Source: an uncultured Gammaproteobacteria bacterium
GTDB taxonomy: Bacteria > Patescibacteriota > Microgenomatia > Daviesbacterales > UBA10151
DNA length: 64,000 nucleotides
Assembly: GCA_964504985.1 (NCBI GenBank)
Contig: CAZDFU010000001.1
Location: 21,752-85,751 of the forward strand
Direction: 5' to 3'
Shown here one piece after another: positions 4,753 to 34,842 of the stretch. The number at the start of each line of letters is the position of its first letter. Position 1 is the stretch's first letter. The notes under the pieces were generated by a model. The model was not told the origin of the DNA, made no database searches, and saw only the letters and a program-made list of their open reading frames with translations. Both the position numbers and the translations under genes were made by a program.

Positions 4753-5409
4753 ATGGATATTTATTGGTTGGGGCAAGCATGTTTTAAGCTAAAAGGAAAA
4801 AAAGCTTCTGTAATTATAGATCCATACAAAAGTGAATTTACAGGATTAAAACTTCCCAAAGACCTGTCTTGTGATGTAGGTTTATCCACTCATGACCATG
4901 ATGATCACAATAACACTGCTATATTAATTTCTCCCTCAGGCGGAAAGCCTATGGTATTTAAAGATCCTGGTGAATATGAGGTAGCAGGAGTGGTAATAGC
5001 GGGTATAAATTCATCCCATGATGATAAAGGCGGTGCGGAAAGAGGAAAAAATACCATTTACCATCTGATGTTTGATGGCTTAAATATTGTTCATTTGGGG
5101 GATTTGGGCCAGCCGGAATTAACAGAAGATCAACTTGCTCAAATTGGAGAAGTTGATATTTTACTAATTCCTGTAGGGTCAGTTTATACTATTGATGGTA
5201 AAAGAGCCTCTTCGATTGTTTCGCAAATTGAGCCTAAAATTATTATACCAATGCATTATAAAACAGAGGAGCTTAAGTTTGAACTGGAAGGGGTTGAAGG
5301 TTTTTTGAAAGAGATGGGGGTTGAGAATATTACCCCTCAGCCAAAATTGTCCATTACCAAAGACAAGCTGCCCGAAGAACCGATGGTAGTTTTGCTTAGC
5401 AAAACTTAA
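4753..5409 (+). CDS. MBL-fold metal-dependent hydrolase (UPF0173-like)
   Basis: MDIYWLGQACFKLKG...STHDHDDH motif; start taken at the internal Met. Confidence 0.7.
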   Translation: MDIYWLGQACFKLKGKKASVIIDPYKSEFTGLKLPKDLSCDVGLSTHDHDDHNNTAILISPSGGKPMVFKDPGEYEVAGVVIAGINSSHDDKGGAERGKNTIYHLMFDGLNIVHLGDLGQPELTEDQLAQIGEVDILLIPVGSVYTIDGKRASSIVSQIEPKIIIPMHYKTEELKFELEGVEGFLKEMGVENITPQPKLSITKDKLPEEPMVVLLSKT

Positions 5410-5414
5410 ATTTT

Positions 5415-6782
5415 ATGCCTCAGGTAACTAAACTTCCGCCTCAGAATATAGAAGCAGAACAATCTTTATTGGGGAGCTTGCTTATTGATAAAGATTCAAT
5501 TGTACGGATTTCAGAAATAATACACCCTTCTCATTTCTACAGAATAGACCAACATGGACCAATTTTTGAAGCAGTCCAATCTTTGTTTGAGAAAAGAGAG
5601 CCTGTTGATCTGGTGACAGTTACAGAGGAGCTAAAAAGAAAAGGCCATTATGATAAGATTGGCGGGTCAGCTTATCTTACAACCCTTGTTAATACTGTTC
5701 CAACCTCAGCCCATATTGAACATTACGCTAGGATTATAAAAGCCCATGCAGTCAGAAGGAACTTGATTGTCCAGGCCACTAAATTAATTGAAAGGGCATA
5801 TAACGAATCTGAGGATGTTGATCAGCTTTTGGAGGCTGCTGAAGCAGGTATTTTTGCGATATCCCAGGAACATGTCAGCCGTGACTTTTTGCCTATCAGA
5901 GAGGCTTTAACTCAATCTTTTGACCGCTTGGATGAATTGCAAAAATCTTCTGGAAAACTCCGCGGGGTTCCAACAGGCTTTAGGGATTTGGATAGTAAAC
6001 TGGCAGGCATGCAAAATTCAAATCTGATAATTTTGGCTTCAAGGCCCGGTCAGGGAAAAACTTCCATGGCTTTAAATATTGCCCAATATGTGGCAGTTGT
6101 GGCTGGGCTGCCTGTTGGAATTTTTTCTTTGGAAATGAGCCAGGAAGAACTGGTTGATAGATTATTGATAGCCCAGGCTGATATTGATGCCTGGAAACTT
6201 AAAACAGGCAGATTAGATGAGAGGGATTTCGATAAACTTTCTTTGGCAATGGGTGAATTGGCTGAGGCACCTGTTTTTATTGATGATACCCCAGGGATTA
6301 CCATTTCTGAGATGAGGACAAAGGCCAGAAGGCTGCAGATTGAACATGGATTAAGATTCTTGATTGTGGATTATCTGCAGCTTGTTAAGGGAAGAAATTT
6401 GGAAAACAGGGTGCAGGAAGTTTCTGAAATTTCCCAAAACCTTAAAAATTTGGCCAGGGAGTTGAAGATTCCAGTTTTAGCGATAAGTCAATTATCAAGA
6501 GCTGTTGAACAAAGAGGTACCAGAAAGCCTCAGCTGGCAGACCTTAGGGAGTCTGGAGCTATAGAGCAGGATGCAGACGTGGTGATGTTTATTTATAGGG
6601 AAGATCCAGAAAGGATGGAGTTGGTTACCCTGGATATTCAAAAACATAGGAATGGGCCTGTTGGAGAGGTTTCATTAATGTTTAGGGCTGATAGGACTAA
6701 GTTTTATGGTTTGGAAAAGGCCAGGAGTATAACTAAGCCTGCCTCAGAGAAAGAATCTAAAGAAACTCCAGTTGCTGCTTAA
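5415..6782 (+). CDS. dnaB: replicative DNA helicase DnaB
   Basis: N-terminal LPPQNIEAEQSLLGSLL, Walker A GQGKTS and the RecA-like C-terminal domain; 455 aa with no intein. Confidence 0.9.
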   Translation: MPQVTKLPPQNIEAEQSLLGSLLIDKDSIVRISEIIHPSHFYRIDQHGPIFEAVQSLFEKREPVDLVTVTEELKRKGHYDKIGGSAYLTTLVNTVPTSAHIEHYARIIKAHAVRRNLIVQATKLIERAYNESEDVDQLLEAAEAGIFAISQEHVSRDFLPIREALTQSFDRLDELQKSSGKLRGVPTGFRDLDSKLAGMQNSNLIILASRPGQGKTSMALNIAQYVAVVAGLPVGIFSLEMSQEELVDRLLIAQADIDAWKLKTGRLDERDFDKLSLAMGELAEAPVFIDDTPGITISEMRTKARRLQIEHGLRFLIVDYLQLVKGRNLENRVQEVSEISQNLKNLARELKIPVLAISQLSRAVEQRGTRKPQLADLRESGAIEQDADVVMFIYREDPERMELVTLDIQKHRNGPVGEVSLMFRADRTKFYGLEKARSITKPASEKESKETPVAA

Positions 6783-6805
6783 TTATTTAATACAGGAACA
6801 GTTTG

Positions 6806-6889
6806 TGCCGGAGGAGGGAGTCGAACCCACATGAGCTTTTGGCTCAAAGGTTTTTGAGACCTTCGCGTCTGCCATTCCGCCACTCCGGC
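6806..6889 (-). tRNA. tRNA-Leu (anticodon CAA)
   Basis: Reverse complement GCCGGAGTGGCGGAATGGCAGACGCGAAGGTCTCAAAAACCTTTGAGCCAAAAGCTCATGTGGGTTCGACTCCCTCCTCCGGCA: 7-bp acceptor stem, anticodon loop CUCAAAA, long variable arm (type II), T-arm GGTTCGACTCC. Confidence 0.8.
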
Positions 6890-25518: not shown

Positions 25519-25519
25519 T

Positions 25520-26440
25520 TTGAAATATAATATCTGAGTTTAGGCTGATATAATAATCCAAACTAATTGAAGTAGAGGAGTGTGAAAAATACCTCAAGAT
25601 TCCGTGAAAAGAAAAAAGATACAGTTTGATATAGTTGCTACCCTCGATGTGGATAACTATAGGGTTATAATTGTAAGATTTTAGCTTCAGTTTTAGCAAG
25701 ATGCATATATATCTGCCAGTGAAGGATACCCGAACCTTCCGGAGAAGAGAACCCCACCCTCTGTGTGCCTTATAAGCACATTGAAACAAAGTAATAGTTA
25801 TTAATCCGCTGTTTTGGATGCAGATTTACAACTTTTCTGACCACTACACTATGGTAGGCAACCTACCCTATGTATTAATGTCGTACAATGTATCTTATGC
25901 GATGTCAAGGAAGGGTTTTCCGGAGGAGCCCGCTAAACGGGCCCATGCCAAAATTTAATAGAATTTAAAGGGATTTATTAACTATATTTATTTGTGCTTA
26001 ATTTCTTACTTTCCTATTAAAAAATTTTATAGTTTATGCGGGGTCAATTTTTAAAATATATCAATATTAGGTTTAGGTCTTCCTGACAGCCTAAACTACA
26101 GATGGTTCCATATAGCTCTCATCCCCTGATAAACCGTTTTTGGGGCATTACAGGGCCTCGTGCCTAGAGAGCGGATTGGGCCCCGCGCTAAAGGCTGCTT
26201 GGCTAAAGCGGTTTGATTTTTGTTCAGCTGTTTTAATGGTTTGATGTTTGCTGCCCACAAATACTAATGTTTATTTAATTGGTCCAGTAACCTTATATAT
26301 AATCTTTGGACTGATCATTAAACTAGGAAAGTTTTTTACAAACCACTTTATGTATGCATCTTTTGTTGTCGCACAATATCTAGGGGTTGACAAACCACAC
26401 TAAAAAATGTCAAGCTGAAGTTAGGTACTAAATTGAGTAT
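25520..26440. other. ~900-bp ORF-free region with GC-rich hairpins; candidate structured ncRNA(s), strand and identity unresolved
   Basis: No ORF >=60 aa in any frame from 25790 to 26440. Local GC reaches 55-60% within the 26131-26214 extended hairpin, against ~33% background, with many short complementary segments. Confidence 0.3.
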
Positions 26441-26443
26441 TTT

Positions 26444-27187
26444 ATGAAATTTCTTAGCCCGGTTTTATCCCTGTCTGTTATACTCACCCTATTCTTACTT
26501 AGCCCTGCCTATGCTTTGGCAGCTACTCTTTCCCTCTCCCCTTCTTCGGGCACCTTTAATAAAGGTTGTCCTTTTAGTTTGGATATTAATTTAGATACAC
26601 AAAATGCTGAAACAGACGGAACAGATGCAATCCTTCTTTATGATAATACCAGATTGACTGCTAACTCCATTGATACTGAACTGCCTCAAAAAATTTATAA
26701 TGACTTCCCAGGAAGTAATATAGATGAGGCTGCAGGCAGAATTACAGTTTCAGGATTAGCTTCAGTTTCAAGCGCTTTTAATGGCAGGGGTACAATGGCA
26801 AAAATATACTTTACAGTAAAAGATAGCGCTGCTACTGGATTAACCCAAGTTAAGTTTGACTTTACTTCTGGCGGTAAAACAACTGATTCTAATGTGGTTG
26901 AGAGAGGGTCGGTTCAGGATATATTAACATCTGTAACTAATGGCAACTACACAGTAGGAACTGGGGCCTGTGGAGCTGCTGCCGGGACGCCTTCTGTCCC
27001 TTCAACATCAGGCAACAACAATACAGTGTTTGTATCTACGCCTTCTGGTCAGGCACCCGCCACCATTGATCAGTTTGTGGACAGAGATGGAAATGGTCCA
27101 GGAGGTACGCCTCAATTAACTTTTACCTTGGCCATTGTAGGATCTGTATTGACTGTTCTGGGAATATTAGGTCTGGCGCTGCTTTAG
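26444..27187 (+). CDS. secreted cell-surface protein (signal peptide, cohesin-like beta domain, C-terminal hydrophobic anchor)
   Basis: Signal peptide ...LSPAYALA; Gly/Thr/Ser-rich linker; C-terminal LAIVGSVLTVLGILGLALL. Confidence 0.5.
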   Translation: MKFLSPVLSLSVILTLFLLSPAYALAATLSLSPSSGTFNKGCPFSLDINLDTQNAETDGTDAILLYDNTRLTANSIDTELPQKIYNDFPGSNIDEAAGRITVSGLASVSSAFNGRGTMAKIYFTVKDSAATGLTQVKFDFTSGGKTTDSNVVERGSVQDILTSVTNGNYTVGTGACGAAAGTPSVPSTSGNNNTVFVSTPSGQAPATIDQFVDRDGNGPGGTPQLTFTLAIVGSVLTVLGILGLALL

Positions 27188-27196
27188 GCTTTCTAA

Positions 27197-28126
27197 TTGT
27201 TTGAAAATATGACTCTTTCCGCTCTTATCACTGATTTTCTGGAATATTTGGAACTTGAGAGAAATGCTTCTCAGCTGACAATAAAAAATTATGATCATTA
27301 TTTAAAAAGGTTTCTGGAGTTTAGCAGTGATATTGATCCTAAAGATATTGACTTAAACTTAGTCAGAAAGTATAGACTCTATCTTTCCCGTTATACTGAT
27401 TCTAAGACAAATAAGCCCTTAAAAAGGGTAACCCAAAATTACTTTATGATTGCTTTAAGGGCCTTTTTAAGATATTTGGCCAGAATAGATATAACCGCTT
27501 TATCTCCTGAGAAAGTAGAGCTTGGGGAGAACGAGCCAAGTCCTTTAAAGATTTTGGATGAAACTTACCTTAAACAATTACTTGATGCCCCTGATATTTC
27601 TAAGAAAAGCGGTTTAAGGGATAAATCAATTTTAGAAATGCTTTTTTCAACAGGGCTTAGGGTTTCTGAATTGGCCTCTTTAAACCGCAGTACTATAAAT
27701 TTAAACAGACGGGAGTTTGGAATTATTGGTAAGGGAGGTAAAGAGCGGGTGGTATTTATATCAGATACTGCAGCAGACTGGCTGCAAAAATACCTTAATA
27801 TTAGAAAGGATACTTTTAAGCCTTTATTTATCCGTTTCCAGGGAAAGGTGAATCTTGAAAATCAGGGTGAAGCCATGAGGCTTACCACAAGGTCTATTGA
27901 AAGAATTGTAGAAAAATATGTAAAAGCCCTGGGTTTGCCTATAAAGGCCACACCTCATACCTTAAGGCATGTTTTTGCTACGGATTTATTAATAAATGGA
28001 GCTGATATCAGATCTGTTCAGGAAATGCTTGGGCATGCTAATATTTCTACCACTCAAATTTATACTCATGTCACCAATGCCCATTTAAAAGACGTCCACA
28101 AATCCTTTCATTCAGGAAATAAGTAA
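27197..28126 (+). CDS. xerD: tyrosine recombinase XerC/XerD
   Basis: C-terminal HTLRHVFATDLLINGADIRSVQEMLGHANISTTQIYTHV with the R..H..R..Y catalytic pattern. Confidence 0.8.
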   Translation: MFENMTLSALITDFLEYLELERNASQLTIKNYDHYLKRFLEFSSDIDPKDIDLNLVRKYRLYLSRYTDSKTNKPLKRVTQNYFMIALRAFLRYLARIDITALSPEKVELGENEPSPLKILDETYLKQLLDAPDISKKSGLRDKSILEMLFSTGLRVSELASLNRSTINLNRREFGIIGKGGKERVVFISDTAADWLQKYLNIRKDTFKPLFIRFQGKVNLENQGEAMRLTTRSIERIVEKYVKALGLPIKATPHTLRHVFATDLLINGADIRSVQEMLGHANISTTQIYTHVTNAHLKDVHKSFHSGNK

Positions 28127-28137
28127 TCCAGGGAAAG

Positions 28138-28923
28138 TTATTGATAAAGGCTTTTTCTGTCTGCCTCTGATAGTATTTCAACACCGCTTATAACATCAAT
28201 AGGCAGAGGCTTCTTGGATACAATCATTATTTCTCTTTCGGCTTCATATCCTGGTTTTGCGTGATCAAGTATTTTTGAACTATAATAAATCACAACGCCT
28301 CTTCTTTTGAAGCATTCAGAAATAACTTGTTGTAAATCTTTAACAGCCCGCTCTGAATTTTCAAATGCCCTTTGATGTGAAAAATCAAGCGGGTGATAAT
28401 CTGGTCCTGTTATTGCTAATAAACTTTCATCTTCATCCCACAACGCTGAATCAGATGGAAAAAGTATACTGGCTAGGATATATATTTGTCTGGCATGAAG
28501 TCTTACTTTAAATTTTTCATTGAAAGGATGTTCAATTGCATGCTTAAGTGCATAGTCTTTGGAAGATTTATGTTGACGCCTCCATGATAATTCTTCTTTA
28601 ATCTCTTCAGGAAAGTCCCCGTATTTTTCAATAATTCCCTCTAAAAGAACTTTAGCCCTTGGATTGCTATTTTCCTCCAATCTTTCATAGATAGGTAATG
28701 CATAATATAAATGCCCCCCATTTTCCATGACCTCTTTTTGGTAAGGAAGCATATCCTCTGCTGCAGGTGCATTATAGGGAACCTGGCCTGTTTGTAAGGC
28801 CTTTGTTAAAAACTCTGCTGAGGTACCGTAAAGAGCTATAGCATCCTTATGATAACCATGCTCAACCCACTGATCTAATTGCTCTAAATTAACAGGCATA
28901 ATAAGAGACCTATAGTTTATCAC
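28138..28923 (-). CDS. hypothetical protein
   Basis: 261-aa soluble ORF with no recognisable motif. Confidence 0.4.
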   Translation of the reverse strand: MINYRSLIMPVNLEQLDQWVEHGYHKDAIALYGTSAEFLTKALQTGQVPYNAPAAEDMLPYQKEVMENGGHLYYALPIYERLEENSNPRAKVLLEGIIEKYGDFPEEIKEELSWRRQHKSSKDYALKHAIEHPFNEKFKVRLHARQIYILASILFPSDSALWDEDESLLAITGPDYHPLDFSHQRAFENSERAVKDLQQVISECFKRRGVVIYYSSKILDHAKPGYEAEREIMIVSKKPLPIDVISGVEILSEADRKSLYQ

Positions 28924-28971
28924 TTAGGATCTTGAGAGCCAACTGACTTACCTTAGCGGTGGATGATTGGG

Positions 28972-29319
28972 TTATTTCTTTAGATTTTTTAATAGATGCG
29001 AGAGGATTGTTGAGGTCAAAGATATCACAAGCGATGCCAGGATGGCTGAAAGAAAACCTGATATTTTCATCCCAGGCACAATTGCTGCTGCCAGCCATAA
29101 GACAAGCGCATTAATAACAAAAGTAAAAAGCCCAAGTGTTAAAAAGTTTAAAGGCAGAGTTAATAAAAGTAGAATTGGTTTAATAACTGCATTTAAAAGC
29201 CCTAATACCACTGCTGCTAAAAGGGCTGTTGGGAAGCTTTCTATTTTAAATCCAGGAACTATATTTGCTGCTATAAGAAGAGAAAGTGCTGAAAAAAGCC
29301 AAGTAAGCAAAAGACCCAT
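28972..29319 (-). CDS. holin-like 4-TM membrane protein (Phage_holin_4_2/YvlD-like)
   Basis: AANIVPGFKIESFPTALLAAVVLGLLNAVIKPILLLLTLPLNFLTLGLFTFVINALVLWLAAAIVPGMKISGFLSAIL matches the duplicated LVPG...LN...P motif of that family; preferred over the antisense + ORF. Confidence 0.55.
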   Translation of the reverse strand: MGLLLTWLFSALSLLIAANIVPGFKIESFPTALLAAVVLGLLNAVIKPILLLLTLPLNFLTLGLFTFVINALVLWLAAAIVPGMKISGFLSAILASLVISLTSTILSHLLKNLKK

Positions 29320-29386
29320 TGATTCATTAATCTCATAAATATTTTAGATTGTCAATGATTGACAAGCCAAACATGCTTATGTAATA

Positions 29387-30430
29387 TTGTTTGGCTGCCC
29401 CTGCAAAATGGCAAGAACTGACTTTGTTATCCCTTCGCTTGGAAATAAATTTGTAGATTTAAGAGAGGTAATTCCTGGTGATTCTTTTAATTGGAGTTGG
29501 GTTAGGGCACTTTCCGGGGTTAATTATTTAGCAATTCATCATACAGCAGGCCCTGATACACAAACTCCCGCCCAGATTGCAAATTTCCATATTAACAGCA
29601 ATGGTTGGGGTGGCATTGGTTATCACTTTTTAATCTCCAAAGATGGGGTAGTTTATTATGTGGGTGATATTGCAACAGCCCGGGCTAATGTGGCTAATTT
29701 AAATGATGCTGTTATTGGTATTTGTTTAATTGGAAACTTTACAGCAGGCAAAGAGCCTACCTTAGCACAGATAGACTCTGCAAATAAACTTTGCGACTTT
29801 TTTATCAACAACTATCCTCCCCTTTCCAATGTAGATTCCTGGGATAAAGTGCGGGGCCATAAAGATTTACCTAACCAATCAACTGTTTGTCCGGGAGATG
29901 CTTGGCAAAGCTGGAGGGCCAGATTGGTATCAGCGCCACCTTCCCCTACCCCTGCTCCAGCTCCAACTCCTGCTCCAACTCCGGAGGACCGGGGGGCCCA
30001 GATTACAGAAAGTTATAGAACTGTTTTAGGAAGGGATCCTGATATGGGAGGATTACAAACTTATACCAACAGTCCCTTGAGTATAGACCAGATAATCCGT
30101 TCTATGGTGGAATCCCAGGAACATAAGGATCTTATAAGTTCAGCCAAAGAATCAGCTGGATTTAAATCTCAAATTGAAAATTTACAAACAACCCTTACCT
30201 CAGTTAACCAGCAATTAATAAGTCTGCAAGAAGCCTTACAAGACAGAGAGGCAGAAATTGCCCAGCTTAAAAAATCTTTGGCTGAAAAAGCAGTGGTTAC
30301 GCCTGGCGAAATACCTTCCCCTAAGTATGATGAGACTGTACAAAAACCAGACACTACCTTGACAATAGTAGGCGCTTTGATTAACTTATATAAGTTTATC
30401 TTCCCGCCCAGAAAGGAAGCTCCAATCTAA
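29387..30430 (+). CDS. N-acetylmuramoyl-L-alanine amidase (amidase_2/PGRP fold) with C-terminal DUF4214-like and coiled-coil region
   Basis: LAIHHTAG...NGWGGIGYHFLISKDGVVYYVGD...CPGDAWQ zinc-amidase residues; Pro/Ala linker; ITESYRTVLGRDPDMGGLQTY. Confidence 0.75.
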   Translation: MFGCPCKMARTDFVIPSLGNKFVDLREVIPGDSFNWSWVRALSGVNYLAIHHTAGPDTQTPAQIANFHINSNGWGGIGYHFLISKDGVVYYVGDIATARANVANLNDAVIGICLIGNFTAGKEPTLAQIDSANKLCDFFINNYPPLSNVDSWDKVRGHKDLPNQSTVCPGDAWQSWRARLVSAPPSPTPAPAPTPAPTPEDRGAQITESYRTVLGRDPDMGGLQTYTNSPLSIDQIIRSMVESQEHKDLISSAKESAGFKSQIENLQTTLTSVNQQLISLQEALQDREAEIAQLKKSLAEKAVVTPGEIPSPKYDETVQKPDTTLTIVGALINLYKFIFPPRKEAPI

Positions 30431-30448
30431 TCTGATTGGTAGTGTAAT

Positions 30449-30742
30449 TTGGATCAAATAAATTTATCTCCCCTGTCTATTATTTTTGCTTTTGCAACTT
30501 TAAATGAATCACTTATAGAATATTTATTTGGAAATGTTAAGCAGTTAAGGCCTTATTTGCCTCTTTTGGCGCTGGCAACATCAGTTTTTTTAACTTTTAC
30601 TTATCAGGTAAATATTTTATCTATGATTTTAGGTATTGAGAGTAACAACCCATTTTTGGATTTTCTTTTATCAGGTTTTATAGTTTCCAGAGGTTCAAAC
30701 TTTGTTAATGACATGGTGCAAAGATTTTTACGAAGTAAATAG
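30449..30742 (+). CDS. small membrane protein (possible second holin-like partner)
   Basis: 97 aa with 2-3 hydrophobic helices, immediately downstream of the amidase gene. Confidence 0.3.
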   Translation: MDQINLSPLSIIFAFATLNESLIEYLFGNVKQLRPYLPLLALATSVFLTFTYQVNILSMILGIESNNPFLDFLLSGFIVSRGSNFVNDMVQRFLRSK

Positions 30743-30755
30743 AGTCCAGAGTAAT

Positions 30756-30968
30756 TTAGGGGGTGGGTTTTCCGGCAAAGCCATATACCCAAAAGTCACC
30801 GGAAAAACCTATTACTTGATATGGCCAAGTTAAGATAACGCTATAAAATCCTGGAGAAAGAAAAGATAAAGCTGGCCACCTGTAATAGAGGGCAAATAGA
30901 ATTGCTGTAACAAAACCAACCATAAAGTACGCTGTTGCTATGGTAGAAATTAAAGAACTTCTCTTCAT
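30756..30968 (-). CDS. small membrane protein
   Basis: 70 aa, two TM helices, directly upstream of gyrA. Confidence 0.3.
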   Translation of the reverse strand: MKRSSLISTIATAYFMVGFVTAILFALYYRWPALSFLSPGFYSVILTWPYQVIGFSGDFWVYGFAGKPTP

Positions 30969-30969
30969 T

Positions 30970-33900
30970 TTATGATCCTATTTTTTCTTTAGAAGACACA
31001 ACTGTTGCTGCTGCTACCCTCTCTCCTGTCCTTACCCTCATTAATATTACTCCCTGGGTTTGTCTTTGCAGGGTTGGAACCTCTTTTAGATCCATTTTTA
31101 TAAGTTGTCCTTTGGTAGAAGTTAAAACTAATGTATCCATTAAGGGGTTTATGGCTTGGGCTGTCACAATAGGCCCTGTTTTGGTTGTAACCTGGGCAGC
31201 TTTAACGCCTTGTCCTCCCCTCCCCTGTTTGCTCCAGCTGGAAAACTTGGTTTTTTTACCCAATCCATTTTCCATTATAACCAAAAGTTCATCATCCTGG
31301 TTTTCTATAAAAGTCAGGGATACTACTTCGTCTGACCCACTAAGCCTTATTCCCCTAACCCCTGAGGTATCCCTATGAGTTGGTTTAACCTGTGATTCTG
31401 AGAAACGGATTGATTTTCCGCCTCTTGAGACTATAATCAAATCATCTTTCCCAGAGGTGGGACAAACCCAGCCCAACTCATCATCTTTATCAAGTTTAAT
31501 TGCTACCAGGCCGTTTTTGCGGATATTGGCATATTCAGTTATGGCAGTCTTTTTAACAGTGCCTTTTTTAGTGCACATGAAGAAAAATTTGGCTGCTTCC
31601 TCTTTTTGGCGGGTTGTTAAGACAGCGGTAACTTTTTCCCCCTGTTCAATATTGATTAAATTAACCACAGCCTGGCCTTTTGCAGCTCTTTGGGTTTCAG
31701 GAATCTCCCAGACTTTAATCTGAAAGACTCTGCCTTTGTCTGTGAAAAATAAAATACTGTCATGAGTTTGGGTATAAAAAATATGTGAAACAGCATCTGT
31801 GTCCTTGGTTGATATACCCATTACCCCTTTGCCACCGCGCTGCTGGGTTCTAAAAGAGTGTGGTGATTGTCTTTTGATATACCCGCCTTCTGTAATGGTT
31901 GCAATTGTTGTCTCATTTGCCACCAAATCTTCTTCTGAAAACTCCCCAACTTTTTGTTTATAAACCCTGGTTCTTCTATCATCTGCATATTTTTCCTTAA
32001 TTTTTATAAGTTCATCTTTAATTACTTTAAGGATCTTTTCTGGATGTGCTAATAAATCTTCCGGATAGGCAATGGTTTCCCTTACCATTTTTAACTCATC
32101 CTCAATTTTTTGTCTTTCCAAAGCAGCAAGACGCCTTAGCTGCATATCCAAAATGGCAACAGCCTGGATTTCTGTTAATTTGAATTTATCCATCAAATTC
32201 TGTCTTGCAGAATCAGCATCCTTGGATTTTTTAATAGTCTCAATAACTTCGTCGATATTATCAACTGCAATTTTTAGCCCTTCCAAAATATGTTCCCTGG
32301 CTTTGGCTTCTGCCAGTTCAAATTCAGATCTTTTGGTGACAACTACAATTCTATGATGGGTAAATTCTTCTAAGATTCTTTTTAAGGTTAAAAGATGAGG
32401 CACTCCATCTGAAAGGGCTACCAGATTAACATTAAAAACCGACTGCATGGACGTATATTTGTAAAGATTATTTAAAATAGACTGTGGCTTGGCATCCCTT
32501 TTTAGGTCAAAAACAATCCTGACCATTTGTTTTCTGTCTGATTCATCCCTTAGATCTGCAATGCCTTCTAATTTTTTATCTTTAACAAGGTCTGCAATTC
32601 TGGCAATTAAGGTTGCTTTATTTACCTGGTACGGCAGCTCGGAAACAATAATCTGCATTTTTCCCTGTGGTGTTTCATCTATTTCTGCTTTGGCTCTCAT
32701 AACTATTCTGCCCTTACCAGTAGCATAAGCTGATAAAATTTCTGTTTGATCATAAATAGATGCGCCTGTAGGAAAATCTGGGCCTTTAATAAATTGCATC
32801 AGGTCCTCAACATTTGCCTCAGAGCGGAAAACTTTATCAGAATGAGGTTGTTCACCTGAATTTTCAGGAGCTTGAGGTTTTAATTTAGCATCTGGTTTTT
32901 CTGGATGCTCTATTAGATAAATCAAAGCATCACATACCTCCCCCAGATTATGAGGCGGGATTTGAGTAGCCATACCAACAGCAATACCAGAGGCTCCATT
33001 TAAAAGTAAGTTTGGTATAACAGAAGGCAGGAGTATTGGTTCTTTGGTTGTTCCAGAATAATTATCAATAAAATCAACAGTTTTTTTATTTATATCCCTT
33101 AAAAGCTCATCAGCTATGGCAGATAATCTAGCTTCAGTATTATGGTTTATAAAACCATTTCCTACAAAAGAATGACATTTGCTGTCTACTTTTAAAGAAT
33201 ACACAGTTTGAATTCCACCGTCTTCTATTTGGGAGACAGAATCAAATAGGTAATTATTTGAAATTAAATGTTCAAATAATAATTGGGTATCGAGTTTTAA
33301 AGTTGGTATAACAGTTGGCACTATCTGGCTATAATTTGAGGTTAAATTAGCATAGCGGTCAAAATTATGTTTTATAGCAAATTCACGTTTGACATAGGAT
33401 AAATTATGGTCTAACTGGCCTAGAACATATTTTCTTAAGAAAGGGACATAATCCAAAAGTGATGAATCTTTATGTAAGGAAAATAATATTTTTTCTAATT
33501 TCCCATTTTTATGTTCAGATAAAAAACCAATTTCTCTTTGGAATAACCTGTAATTCCTAAGACCTCTTATATATAACTTATGAGTTGACCTAAATTTATC
33601 AAATCTTTTAGTTGAGGCAATACCAAATCTTAAAAGGATAATTTGTAATTGACTAATAAGCTTTTCACTTACAGATATAGCTGATAACTCAACCATTTTT
33701 ATACTGCTGCTTATACTTCCATCACCTTCAAAATAAGCCTGCAAAAATCTAGCAACTACTTCTTTAGAAGATTGTAGGATAACTTGAGGGATTTCTTTTT
33801 GTGCTGCTTTAAGAGGGTTTAAGCCTAGGTTTTTCAAAAACTCAATAATATATAAACTATGGATCTCTAATCTATAATATGGTTTCTTACCATAAGAGCT

Positions 33901-34842
33901 TGGTTGTTTTAAAAATTTATGTAAATGACAATCAGGGAAAACCTCTTTCCAAATCATCTCAAATTCATTTATCCAGTTTTCATCACTGTTGCAAAATTCA
34001 ATTTTTTTCTTTCCTACATATCCTTCTGAAATAAGTGCCCCCAGAATATATGCTAAATCAGAATTTAAAGTTTTTGGTAAAATTTTAACCTCAGTCCTAT
34101 AACTTGGATCTTTAGGAATGAATTCCTTTAGAGATATTTCCCCTGTTGGCCAGATGAGATCTGAGGTTCTATCGATAACAGTTATATCCCCTTTTCCGAT
34201 TTGACTAAGTAGTTTCCATTTATACTCAGGTTTACCGGTAATTGGATTTTTAACCCATGTTAACAAAGGATGATTATGAGATCCTTGAATGGTAAATCCC
34301 TGGTTTGTTGTAATCTTGATTGTTGGGTGATGGCCACTATCAAACCATTTTGAAGTTTTATTAATAGTGCGGTTTCTGGAAAGTATTGATGTTTTAAAAT
34401 CCTCTGATTGATTTGGTGAAATATCTTTAATTTGTTGAAGACCTTTTTCAGTAACTATTAAAGTATCACCAGTAATGCAATACCGCATGGCTGCTGGTGA
34501 ATCCCCGTCAATTGAACCAAAATTTCCCTGGCCATCAATTAGCATATACCTCATAGAAAAATTCTGAGCCATTCTAACCATAGCCTCATAAACAGGGGCA
34601 TCTCCGTGTGGATGAAGATTTTTCAAAACTTCTCCCACCACTGCTGCAGATTTTTGATACCTGGAGGTATGGTGCAGGCCTTGTTCAGACATGGCAAAGA
34701 TAATTCTTCTTTGAACAGGTTTAAGGCCATCTCTTACATCAGGCAAGGCACGGGACACTATAACGCTCATGGCGTAATCCAGATAGGATTTTTGCATTTC
34801 TTCAATAATAGGAGCTGGTTGAACTTTTCCGATATTTGCCAT
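30970..34842 (-). CDS. gyrA: DNA gyrase subunit A, interrupted in-frame by an intein
   Basis: 1290-aa ORF; exteins total 843 aa with GyrA motifs (active-site region ...[16 protein letters not shown]|TEARL...). An intein sits between AMRY and TEARL. Confidence 0.9.
33139..34479 (-). mobile_element. GyrA intein (447 aa) with LAGLIDADG homing-endonuclease domain
   Basis: Begins CITGDTLIV (block A) and ends VGNGFINHN followed by extein T (+1 nucleophile). Internal [14 protein letters not shown] and [20 protein letters not shown] motifs. Boundaries checked against codons at 34477-34479 (TGC) and 33139-33141 (AAT). Confidence 0.85.

What the first reader, a model, noticed from the sequence alone, without database searches (positions are those of the whole stretch)
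27197..30968. Holin-like (PF04020-type) protein and amidase_2 peptidoglycan amidase, divergently arranged with two extra small membrane proteins, beside xerC/D and gyrA
The 4-TM protein at 28972-29319 (minus) matches the YvlD/Phage_holin_4_2 pattern. The divergent gene encodes an amidase_2 (PGRP/T7-lysozyme-type) N-acetylmuramoyl-L-alanine amidase with a coiled-coil/DUF4214 tail. A 97-aa and a 70-aa membrane protein follow, and a tyrosine recombinase plus an orphan 261-aa protein precede. This looks like a lysis cassette, either a prophage remnant or a domesticated autolysin/holin module. It may be relevant to cell division or predation-like lifestyles in small-genome bacteria.
Basis: partly seen in the sequence, partly recalled or inferred. 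Interest (0 to 1): 0.5.

Follow-up and report, generated by a model that had tools for sequence, protein, structure and literature searches.

The report
Phage-type amidase plus small holin-like partner
The genes are all there as described, but the real unit is a cell-wall-cutting amidase and the 97-aa membrane protein just after it: a phage-style lysis pair held at one chromosomal spot across a lineage of tiny (Daviesbacteria-like) bacteria, while the gene labelled "holin" and the other neighbours are bystanders.

Summary
All ORFs exist as described. Pfam confirms PF04020 (E 2e-36) and Amidase_2 (E 5e-21).

The cassette reading is only partly right. About 18 related Daviesbacteria/Microgenomates genomes share the order cohesin x2 - Xer - [variable] - amidase - 97-aa gene - [variable] - 70-aa gene - gyrA.

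- **Not a prophage remnant:** there are no att repeats, no GC anomaly and no phage structural genes.
- **The constant unit is amidase + 97-aa gene.** They are adjacent in 16 of 17 such loci and share their own conserved TTGACA-17-TAGTAT promoter.
- **PF04020 is loosely linked.** It is missing from this gap in six relatives. In four others a P-type ATPase operon separates it from the amidase. No phage relatives were detected. Its Firmicutes homologue YvlD sits in an envelope-stress operon.
- **The 97-aa protein is phage-related.** It belongs to phrog_20258 (unknown function, not in Pfam). At least 142 viral stretches encode relatives, often directly beside endolysins, including phrog_1493, the amidase's own best PHROG.
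- **The amidase** has no signal peptide, intact Zn ligands, a coiled coil and an invariant C-terminal hydrophobic helix. That helix co-occurs with the 97-aa gene.
- **Unrelated neighbours:** the 261-aa ORF is a strain-specific insertion, the 70-aa gene travels with gyrA, and Xer is housekeeping.

Most likely this is a fixed endolysin/holin-like autolysin module. The gating mechanism is inferred, not shown.

The parts
29349..29387 (+). Promoter of the amidase/97-aa operon: TTGACA (29359-29364), 17 nt, TAATAT (ends 29387). The -35 box lies inside a perfect palindrome, TTGTCAATGATTGACAA (29349-29365).
   Evidence: Consensus scan. TTGACAAG...17 nt...TAGTAT is conserved about 45 nt upstream of the amidase ATG in the Daviesbacteria-type relatives, whether or not PF04020 lies upstream.
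29408..30430 (+). 340-aa N-acetylmuramoyl-L-alanine amidase (Amidase_2 / PGRP / T7-lysozyme type). No signal peptide. Pro-rich linker, DUF4214-like module, coiled coil, and an invariant C-terminal hydrophobic helix (TLTIVGALINLYKFIFP).
   Evidence: Pfam PF01510 E 4.5e-21. PHROG phrog_1493 endolysin E 6e-30. PDB profile hits to PGRPs, LysT endolysin and T7 lysozyme. More than 120 full-length homologues with invariant H44/H45, H151 and C161. No 19-residue window reaches KD 1.4. IMG/VR phage contigs encode 44-52% identical catalytic domains with a similar tail architecture.
30449..30742 (+). 97-aa small membrane protein ('sm97'), the proposed holin-like partner of the amidase. Three long helices plus one short helix, and a basic C-terminus.
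   Evidence: Begins 18 nt after the amidase stop. Adjacent to the amidase in 16 of 17 relatives with this locus type. phrog_20258 E 1.6e-6, and 76 of 77 diverse relatives match it. 494 representative clusters. hhalign probability 95.7% to the Solobacterium phage SMO_1P gene directly upstream of its endolysin. At least 142 viral stretches encode relatives, often next to endolysins. AF2 pLDDT 91.8.
28972..29319 (-). 115-aa PF04020 (YvlD/DUF360, 'Phage_holin_4_2') membrane protein. A neighbour, probably not a functional part of the module.
   Evidence: Pfam E 2.4e-36. Present between Xer and the amidase in 11 of 17 such relatives, and on the Xer side of the ATPase operon when that operon is present. 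No relatives detected in 50,697 phage genomes or in IMG/VR. YvlD is in the sigmaW/Psp-like yvlABCD operon (PMC12791056).
27197..28126 (+). 309-aa Xer-type tyrosine recombinase. A housekeeping neighbour, not a prophage integrase.
   Evidence: 78-85% identical orthologues at the same place, downstream of two cohesin-domain genes, in most relatives.
28138..28923 (-). 261-aa (probably 253-aa) ORFan. A strain-specific insertion in a variable gap. Function unknown.
   Evidence: Absent from all related loci. Only two other homologues among 5.8 billion clusters, both in unrelated contexts. AF2 pLDDT 44. No PDB or PADLOC hit.
30756..30968 (-). 70-aa membrane protein that belongs with gyrA, not with the amidase.
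   Evidence: Starts 2 nt after the gyrA stop on the same strand. It stays next to gyrA in all relatives even when insertions separate it from sm97.

Best explanation
The functional unit is a two-gene operon (29408-30742, + strand) with its own sigma-70-type promoter. It encodes a Zn-dependent Amidase_2 peptidoglycan amidase made without a signal peptide, followed by a 97-aa membrane protein with three long helices.

Both genes have phage counterparts that sit together in lysis cassettes (phrog_1493 endolysin and phrog_20258). So the pair is a phage-type endolysin/holin-like module that became fixed at one chromosomal locus in the Daviesbacteria-like lineage. It has been kept under selection there as a host autolysin system.

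Proposed mechanism (inferred, not shown):
1. The amidase accumulates in the cytoplasm, or on the inner face of the membrane via its conserved C-terminal hydrophobic helix.
2. The 97-aa protein oligomerises in the membrane and gives the amidase access to the wall.
3. The amidase then cuts the MurNAc-L-Ala bond, serving daughter-cell separation, wall remodelling or programmed lysis.

The PF04020 gene, Xer, the 261-aa ORF and the 70-aa ORF are syntenic or inserted neighbours with separate roles.
For: **Shown.**
- Domain identities and intact Zn ligands.
- No signal peptide or transmembrane segment in the amidase.
- Amidase and sm97 are adjacent, with gaps of 0-25 nt, in 16 of 17 related genomes with this locus type. 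The seventeenth (L038) is a deletion that fuses the two genes.
- The promoter is conserved independently of what lies upstream.
- The sm97 family equals phrog_20258.
- A homologue lies directly upstream of the endolysin in Solobacterium phage SMO_1P, with hhalign probability 95.7%.
- 142 viral stretches encode relatives. In at least 23 of 79 analysed viral loci an immediate neighbour falls in an Amidase_2/phrog_1493 cluster or in a cluster of which 11 of 15 members carry a PG_binding_1 domain. Further loci have SLT, GH25, CHAP or M15 neighbours.
- Phage amidases 44-52% identical share the linker, coiled coil and C-terminal helix architecture.
- The C-terminal helix and sm97 co-occur. Both are present in all loci checked that have sm97. 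Both are absent in L034, L036 and L040, where a different 2-TM protein precedes the amidase.
- Four of the top nine BFVD fold matches are annotated as holins, though all with weak E-values.
Against: - No experiment shows that any phrog_20258 member forms membrane lesions. The PHROG itself is annotated 'unknown function'.
- Pfam holin families are hit only marginally (Phage_holin_5_2, 4 of 77 members, best E 0.0013).
- The sm97 hydrophobic segments are only moderately hydrophobic (KD 1.4-1.6).
- Fold matches are not significant.
- About two thirds of the viral loci show no recognisable hydrolase as an immediate neighbour.
- sm97 could instead be an anchor, an antiholin or an immunity factor.
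- The biological role (separation, lysis or attack on another cell) is not addressed by any data here.
Confidence: 0.6

Rival explanations
1. One reading: the PF04020 protein is the holin that releases the divergently encoded amidase, and together they form a divergent lysis cassette.
For: Strong PF04020 match, a family that Pfam and TCDB label as a putative 4-TMS holin. The gene lies in the same neighbourhood in 11 of 17 relatives with this locus type. In this window the two genes share an 88-nt divergent intergenic region that contains a palindrome.
Against: - PF04020 is absent from the gap in L024, L030, L031, L033, L039 and L042, where the amidase/sm97 pair is intact.
- In L025, L029, L035 and L037 a 184-aa + 770-aa P-type ATPase operon lies between the two genes, and PF04020 stays on the Xer side.
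- The amidase promoter is conserved without PF04020 upstream.
- No PF04020 relatives were detected in 50,697 phage genomes or in IMG/VR with these queries.
- Its only PHROG hit is weak and of unknown function.
- Firmicutes YvlD belongs to a sigmaW/Psp-like envelope-stress operon (PMC12791056; PMC3498285).
Confidence: 0.1
2. The region is a decaying prophage remnant: integrase + lysis genes + cargo.
For: A tyrosine recombinase lies nearby. The amidase and sm97 have phage homologues. A strain-specific ORFan sits between them.
Against: - The same gene order is found in about 18 species-level genomes with 42-77% amidase identity, and the catalytic residues are invariant.
- GC content is flat.
- Only short imperfect repeats were found.
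- There is no tRNA nearby and no structural or replication phage gene.
- The recombinase is Xer-like and highly conserved with its upstream cohesin genes.
Confidence: 0.04
3. The amidase/sm97 pair is an offensive or feeding tool of an episymbiotic small-genome bacterium. The amidase would be delivered to the wall of a host or prey cell, or used in fratricide for DNA uptake, rather than acting on the producer's own wall. This overlaps with the best explanation in its parts but differs in its target.
For: The organism is Patescibacteria/Microgenomates-like by its homologue names. Conserved cohesin/dockerin surface proteins lie just upstream. The enzyme has no classical cell-wall-binding domain, only a coiled coil and a helix.
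Against: No evidence bears on the target. The nearest relatives are endolysins of phages that presumably lyse the same kind of cell from within. No secretion or contact apparatus is linked to the pair.
Confidence: 0.12
4. The amidase is a cytoplasmic AmpD-like muropeptide-recycling enzyme, and sm97 is an unrelated small membrane protein or a membrane anchor or regulator. No translocation is involved.
For: There is no signal peptide. The Amidase_2 family includes cytoplasmic AmpD (general knowledge). The hole-forming activity of sm97 is untested.
Against: - The best matches are endolysin PHROGs and PGRP/LysT/T7-lysozyme structures, not AmpD.
- The long linker, coiled coil and C-terminal helix architecture is shared with phage enzymes located next to tail genes.
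- sm97 relatives are enriched next to endolysins in phages.
Confidence: 0.1

Closest known systems
Canonical phage holin-endolysin lysis cassettes, specifically phrog_1493 Amidase_2 endolysins with a phrog_20258 small membrane protein (for example Solobacterium phage SMO_1P QYC52420 + LysA-like endolysin, and many IMG/VR contigs)
   Same: The same two protein families sit adjacent to each other. The order endolysin then small membrane protein is seen in many viral loci. The enzyme lacks a signal peptide. The partner is a small multi-helix membrane protein with a basic C-terminus.
   Different: Here the pair sits alone at a fixed chromosomal locus between Xer and gyrA in a whole lineage, with its own promoter and no other phage genes. 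phrog_20258 itself has never been shown to be a holin.
Streptococcus pneumoniae LytA (major autolysin)
   Same: A chromosomal Amidase_2 enzyme without a signal peptide, homologous to endolysins of the species' own phages and kept as a host autolysin (PMC3950521, PMC3322828).
   Different: LytA has choline-binding repeats and no dedicated adjacent holin-like gene. The enzyme here has a coiled coil and a C-terminal hydrophobic helix, plus a tightly linked membrane partner.
Domesticated lysis cassettes / type 10 secretion systems (Serratia ChiWXYZ, Salmonella TtsA, C. difficile TcdE/TcdL, Yersinia entomophaga)
   Same: Phage-derived holin plus peptidoglycan hydrolase retained in the chromosome for a host function (PMC13284979, PMC9527704, PMC10847048).
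   Different: Those systems export an identifiable cargo (a toxin or chitinase) and belong to other holin and hydrolase families. No cargo gene is linked here. The hydrolase itself may be the only client.
YvlD / PF04020 (DUF360) proteins of Firmicutes
   Same: The 115-aa neighbour is a full-length member by HMM.
   Different: YvlD is encoded in the sigmaW-controlled Psp-like yvlABCD operon with a PspC homologue (PMC12791056, PMC3498285). No PspC or toastrack gene lies next to it here, and no lysis function is documented for the family.

Membership tests
Pfam PF04020 Phage_holin_4_2 (YvlD/DUF360) - the 115-aa protein | Full-length HMM match above the gathering score | tested here: met
   125 bits against a cut-off of 28.8, profile positions 1-105 of 105.
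Pfam PF04020 Phage_holin_4_2 (YvlD/DUF360) - the 115-aa protein | Acts as a holin: encoded in phage lysis cassettes or consistently next to an endolysin | tested here: not met
   No relatives in phage genomes or IMG/VR with these queries. Adjacency to the amidase is not conserved. These searches have limited sensitivity.
Functional class 'holin' - the 97-aa protein | Small (<150 aa) membrane protein with at least one transmembrane helix and a charged C-terminus | tested here: met
   97 aa. Helices at 8-27, 31-51 and 68-95 (pLDDT 91.8). Hydrophobic windows at 9-27 and 39-63. The C-terminus is QRFLRSK.
Functional class 'holin' - the 97-aa protein | Encoded adjacent to an endolysin, with homologues in phage lysis cassettes | tested here: met
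Functional class 'holin' - the 97-aa protein | Forms lethal or timed membrane lesions that release the endolysin | not testable with these tools
   Needs expression and lysis assays.
Functional class 'holin' - the 97-aa protein | Membership of a described holin family (Pfam, or a PHROG annotated as holin) | tested here: inconclusive
   The window protein has no Pfam hit. Among relatives, 4 of 77 touch PF16079 Phage_holin_5_2 at E >= 0.0013, and 4 of 77 touch holin PHROGs at E about 1e-4. The family's own PHROG is of unknown function.
Amidase_2 (PF01510; PGRP / T7 lysozyme type N-acetylmuramoyl-L-alanine amidase) | HMM match and conserved Zn ligands (His, His, Cys) | tested here: met
   E 4.5e-21. 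H44/H45, H151 and C161 are invariant in 17 homologues. PDB profile hits.
Amidase_2 (PF01510; PGRP / T7 lysozyme type N-acetylmuramoyl-L-alanine amidase) | Hydrolyses the MurNAc-L-Ala bond of peptidoglycan | not testable with these tools
   Needs an enzyme assay.
Prophage or prophage remnant | Flanking att repeats, an integrase specific to the element, phage structural or replication genes, and patchy presence among relatives | tested here: not met
XerC/XerD chromosome-dimer recombinase - the 309-aa protein | Score above the equivalog cut-off, and catalytic R-K-H-R-H-Y residues | tested here: inconclusive
   Below the XerC cut-off (242 vs 335) and the XerD cut-off (239 vs 330), but passes XerA_Arch (221.2 vs 220). 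Arg, HxxR and His...Tyr motifs are visible in the sequence. A dif site was not searched for.
Type 10 secretion system (holin / PG-hydrolase-dependent secretion) | Holin + peptidoglycan hydrolase + a linked signal-less cargo protein | tested here: inconclusive
   A hydrolase and a holin-like gene are present. No linked cargo is conserved in the relatives.

The most novel reading that the evidence does not exclude
The amidase/sm97 pair is the core daughter-cell-separation autolysin of Daviesbacteria-like bacteria. On this reading, a vertically inherited phage-derived system uses an uncharacterised holin family (phrog_20258, about 500 clusters at 50% identity, absent from Pfam). That protein recognises the enzyme's conserved C-terminal hydrophobic helix and moves or activates the enzyme non-lytically. 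This would be a new Sec-independent route for exporting a wall hydrolase in small-genome bacteria.
Probability: 0.12. Interest if true: 0.6.

Novelty: new member of a known kind. Interest (0 to 1): 0.3.

Why it matters
- It corrects an annotation trap. The gene named "phage holin" (PF04020) is probably not the holin here, whereas an unannotated 97-aa ORF is the lysis-cassette partner.
- It puts a functional lead on phrog_20258, a widespread small-protein family with no Pfam model. The lead is lysis-associated and holin-like.
- It gives a lineage-wide example of a phage lysis pair retained in reduced Patescibacteria genomes. In these organisms, how wall hydrolases are exported and controlled is essentially unknown.
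- It does not reveal a new kind of system.

Tried and rejected
- **Single-sequence scans of IMG/VR** with the amidase, sm97 or PF04020 found nothing. Alignments were needed.
- **PF04020 alignment scan of IMG/VR** (A7) found no relatives. tblastn against 50,697 phage genomes also found none. The alignment is narrow, so this is weak negative evidence.
- **My own Amidase_2 HMM**, built from close homologues, was too narrow to tally endolysin neighbours (5 loci). I used Pfam/PHROG counts and clustering instead.
- **Structure of the 261-aa ORFan** failed (pLDDT 44), so no fold search was run on it. PDB profile, PADLOC, Pfam, NCBIfam and PHROGs were all negative.
- **Fold search of the sm97 model** gave only non-significant matches in BFVD and nothing in the PDB. 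The afdb50 library was unavailable.
- **Search for att-type repeats** found only 14-24-nt imperfect matches.
- **Rfam scan** found only the tRNA-Leu at 6806-6889.
- **Rejected: the Xer as a prophage integrase** (conserved synteny and high identity).
- **Rejected: the 70-aa gene as part of the module** (it always travels with gyrA).
- **Literature searches** found no paper on this pair in Patescibacteria.

Full report

- Pfam gives a full-length PF04020 (Phage_holin_4_2) match for 28972-29319(-), E 2.4e-36.
- It gives PF01510 Amidase_2 for the gene starting at 29387, E 4.5e-21. There is also a sub-threshold DUF4214 match and coiled-coil noise at aa 240-300.
- The recombinase at 27197-28126 is Xer-like. 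It falls below the XerC and XerD equivalog cut-offs and just passes XerA.
- The 261-aa ORF has no hit in Pfam, NCBIfam, PHROGs, PADLOC or PDB sequences.
- The amidase really starts at ATG 29408 (340 aa). All homologues begin MA(K/R)xDL, and the promoter -10 box ends at 29387.

**Organism and conservation.** The amidase has more than 120 full-length homologues at 50-77% identity. The sources that name them call them Candidatus Daviesbacteria or Microgenomates.

I fetched loci through exact-protein look-ups and a scan of species-representative genomes. I then mapped the window's proteins onto them by tblastn.

About 18 genomes show the same order: cohesin-domain genes x2, Xer, a variable gap, amidase, the 97-aa gene (sm97), a second variable gap, the 70-aa gene (sm70), gyrA.

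GC content across 26-31 kb is flat. The only tRNA is 20 kb away. The only repeats are 14-24-nt imperfect matches. No phage structural gene is present. This is not a prophage remnant.

**What is constant and what is not.**

- **Amidase and sm97.** They are adjacent, with gaps of 0-25 nt, in 16 of 17 loci of this type. The exception, L038, carries a deletion that fuses the amidase coiled coil to the sm97 C-terminus.
- **sm70.** It starts 2 nt after the gyrA stop. It stays with gyrA even where transposase-like genes separate it from sm97.
- **PF04020.** It lies between Xer and the amidase in 11 loci. It is missing there in L024, L030, L031, L033, L039 and L042. In L025, L029, L035 and L037 a 184-aa membrane protein plus a 770-aa P-type ATPase operon separates it from the amidase, and PF04020 remains on the Xer side. 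The "divergent pair" seen in this window is therefore one of several local arrangements.
- **The 261-aa ORF.** It is absent from every related locus. It has only two other homologues among 5.8 billion protein clusters, both in unrelated contexts. It is a strain-specific insertion in a gap that is evidently an insertion hotspot.
- **The amidase promoter.** TTGACAAG, 17 nt, TAGTAT lies about 45 nt upstream of the ATG. It is conserved across the Daviesbacteria-type relatives whatever lies upstream.

**The amidase.** In the 17-sequence alignment the His-His...His...Cys residues of the Amidase_2 zinc site are invariant. The conserved N-terminus, MAKxDLxIPSLGNKF, has no hydrophobic signal sequence. 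No 19-residue window reaches KD 1.4.

After a Pro-rich linker comes a DUF4214-like module. This module is dispensable, being absent in L033, L035, L037, L041 and L042. It is followed by a conserved coiled coil and an invariant C-terminal hydrophobic helix, D-TLTIVGALINLYKFIFP.

Profile search of the PDB finds PGRPs, the LysT endolysin and T7 lysozyme. The best PHROG is phrog_1493, annotated endolysin (E 6e-30).

IMG/VR contigs with tail-fibre-like genes encode catalytic domains 44-52% identical from residue 1. They have the same linker, coiled coil and terminal-helix layout.

**The 97-aa protein.** It has no Pfam family. It matches phrog_20258 (unknown function) at E 1.6e-6.

- A profile of its 19 closest homologues finds 494 representative clusters of 80-150-aa proteins in 1.84 billion representatives. 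Of 77 diverse members, 76 match phrog_20258.
- The one hit in deposited phage genomes is Solobacterium phage SMO_1P QYC52420. It is a 97-aa protein placed between tail genes and the "LysA-like endolysin", which is the classical holin position. It matches phrog_20258 at 1.4e-10. It aligns to the sm97 profile with 95.7% probability through the shared motif PFL..L(S/T)G.I..RG(S/A)NFVND.
- An alignment-based scan of IMG/VR found 142 stretches encoding relatives.
- Among the immediate same-strand neighbours in 79 analysed loci, the upstream genes include phrog_1493 endolysin (10), Amidase_2 (8), PG_binding_1 (11), and CHAP, M15, VanY and Rv2525c-like hydrolases. The downstream genes include small SLT transglycosylases (6-7), GH25, Amidase_2, CHAP, XhlA and a Phage_holin_4_1 protein.
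- Clustering shows that at least 23 of the 79 loci have an immediate neighbour in one of two clusters. One is the Amidase_2/phrog_1493 cluster. The other is a cluster of which 11 of 15 members carry PG_binding_1. A phage genome normally has roughly one endolysin per several dozen genes (general knowledge). So this looks like strong enrichment, although I did not compute a formal null.
- The AlphaFold model built with 77 sequences is confident (pLDDT 91.8). It has helices at 8-27, 31-51, 56-61 and 68-95.
- Fold searches are not significant. Four of the nine best BFVD matches are annotated as holins, and nothing similar has been solved.

**PF04020.** The family label comes from a bioinformatic holin classification. 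I found no functional evidence for lysis.

In Firmicutes the homologue YvlD is part of the sigmaW-controlled, Psp-like yvlABCD envelope-stress operon (PMC12791056; PMC3498285). My searches found no relatives of the window's protein in 50,697 phage genomes or in IMG/VR. The alignment query was narrow, so this is only weak negative evidence. Its sole PHROG hit is weak and of unknown function.

Together with the loose linkage described above, PF04020 is most simply a housekeeping membrane protein that happens to lie here.

**Mechanism.**

- *Shown:* two co-oriented, tightly linked genes under one conserved promoter; an intact amidase without an export signal; a small multi-helix membrane protein whose relatives sit beside endolysins in phages.
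- *Inferred:* sm97 gates the amidase's access to peptidoglycan in a holin-like way. The conserved C-terminal hydrophobic helix may be the docking element.

One observation supports that link. The helix and sm97 are both present in every Daviesbacteria-type locus checked. Both are absent in the Gottesmanbacteria-type loci L034, L036 and L040. There the amidase is instead preceded by an RHH-like 70-aa protein and a different 2-TM 129-138-aa protein.

Whether the module serves cell separation, programmed lysis or attack on another cell cannot be decided here.

**Comparison with known systems.**

- In parts and order it is a phage holin/endolysin pair.
- In genomic status it resembles pneumococcal LytA, a signal-less Amidase_2 autolysin related to phage lysins (PMC3950521).
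- It also resembles domesticated lysis cassettes such as T10SS (PMC13284979, PMC9527704, PMC10847048), but without an identifiable cargo and with different families.

It is a new member of a known kind. The modest novelty lies in two points. The first is the unannotated putative holin family. The second is its fixation across a Patescibacteria lineage.

**Verdict.** Interest 0.3.

Noticed in passing
window 30970-34842 (-), intein about 33139-34476: gyrA (1290 aa) carries an intein of about 446 aa (residues about 123-568, with Cys...His-Asn/Thr junctions). Relatives have 822-853-aa GyrA without it, except L027, whose gyrA aligns contiguously over the whole 1287 residues.
   Followed up: partly
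window 30756-30968 (-): A 70-aa membrane-protein gene starts 2 nt after the gyrA stop. It is conserved directly downstream of gyrA in all relatives (60-76% identity). It looks like a gyrA-linked small protein of unknown function.
   Followed up: partly
window 29349-29365: A perfect 17-nt palindrome, TTGTCAATGATTGACAA, contains the -35 box of the amidase promoter and a mirror TTGACA on the other strand facing PF04020. Only the TTGACAA half is conserved in relatives. It could be an operator or simply two back-to-back -35 boxes.
   Followed up: partly
window about 29388-29407, and the equivalent region in L024-L041: The short 5' UTR of the amidase contains a conserved pyrimidine-rich CCTGCC-like motif in most relatives. 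Its function is unknown.
   Followed up: no
window 28127-28971; L025, L029, L030, L033, L035, L037, L039 between Xer/PF04020 and the amidase: The Xer-amidase gap is an insertion hotspot. This window has a 261-aa ORFan there. Seven relatives carry a 178-195-aa membrane protein plus a 770-aa P-type ATPase operon. The sm97-sm70 gap is a second hotspot, with transposase-like genes.
   Followed up: partly
L038 5995-6768: In one relative the amidase ORF (257 aa) ends with the C-terminal residues of sm97 (...LALATAIFIDFMLSGFIILLGSK). This looks like a deletion fusing the two genes, so the module may be decaying in that genome.
   Followed up: no
L045 5019-6896: In a phage-like contig the homologous endolysin amidase is interrupted after the NLNEQVIGIC motif by a long insert that looks like an intein/homing endonuclease. 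The catalytic domain resumes downstream.
   Followed up: no
L034, L036, L040, about 5330-6800: Gottesmanbacteria-type relatives have a shorter amidase (265-269 aa, with DUF4214 but no C-terminal hydrophobic helix) and no sm97. Their amidase is preceded by an RHH-like 68-73-aa protein and a 2-TM 129-138-aa protein (weak phrog_9646 hit). This is an alternative small-membrane-protein partner.
   Followed up: partly
L003 6843-7535; L005 6874-7590: In two relatives the Xer orthologue is truncated to 230-238 aa and lacks most of the catalytic domain. L003 has a second, 337-aa integrase-family gene 5 kb upstream.
   Followed up: no
window 26444-27187 (+); L003 5500-6839; L005 2477-6877: One or two cohesin-domain proteins (signal peptide plus C-terminal TM) are conserved just upstream of Xer. 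In L005 they follow a 991-aa dockerin-domain protein. This may be a cohesin-dockerin surface system in these small-genome bacteria.
   Followed up: no
window 25519-26443: A stretch of about 900 nt has no ORF of 90 aa or more and no Rfam match at gathering thresholds.
   Followed up: partly
L024, L025, L027-L029, L031, L033, L035-L039 (record titles): Many MAG records that carry this clearly Daviesbacteria/Microgenomates-like locus are titled 'uncultured Gammaproteobacteria bacterium'. These are probably placeholder or wrong taxonomic labels in the deposited records.
   Followed up: no
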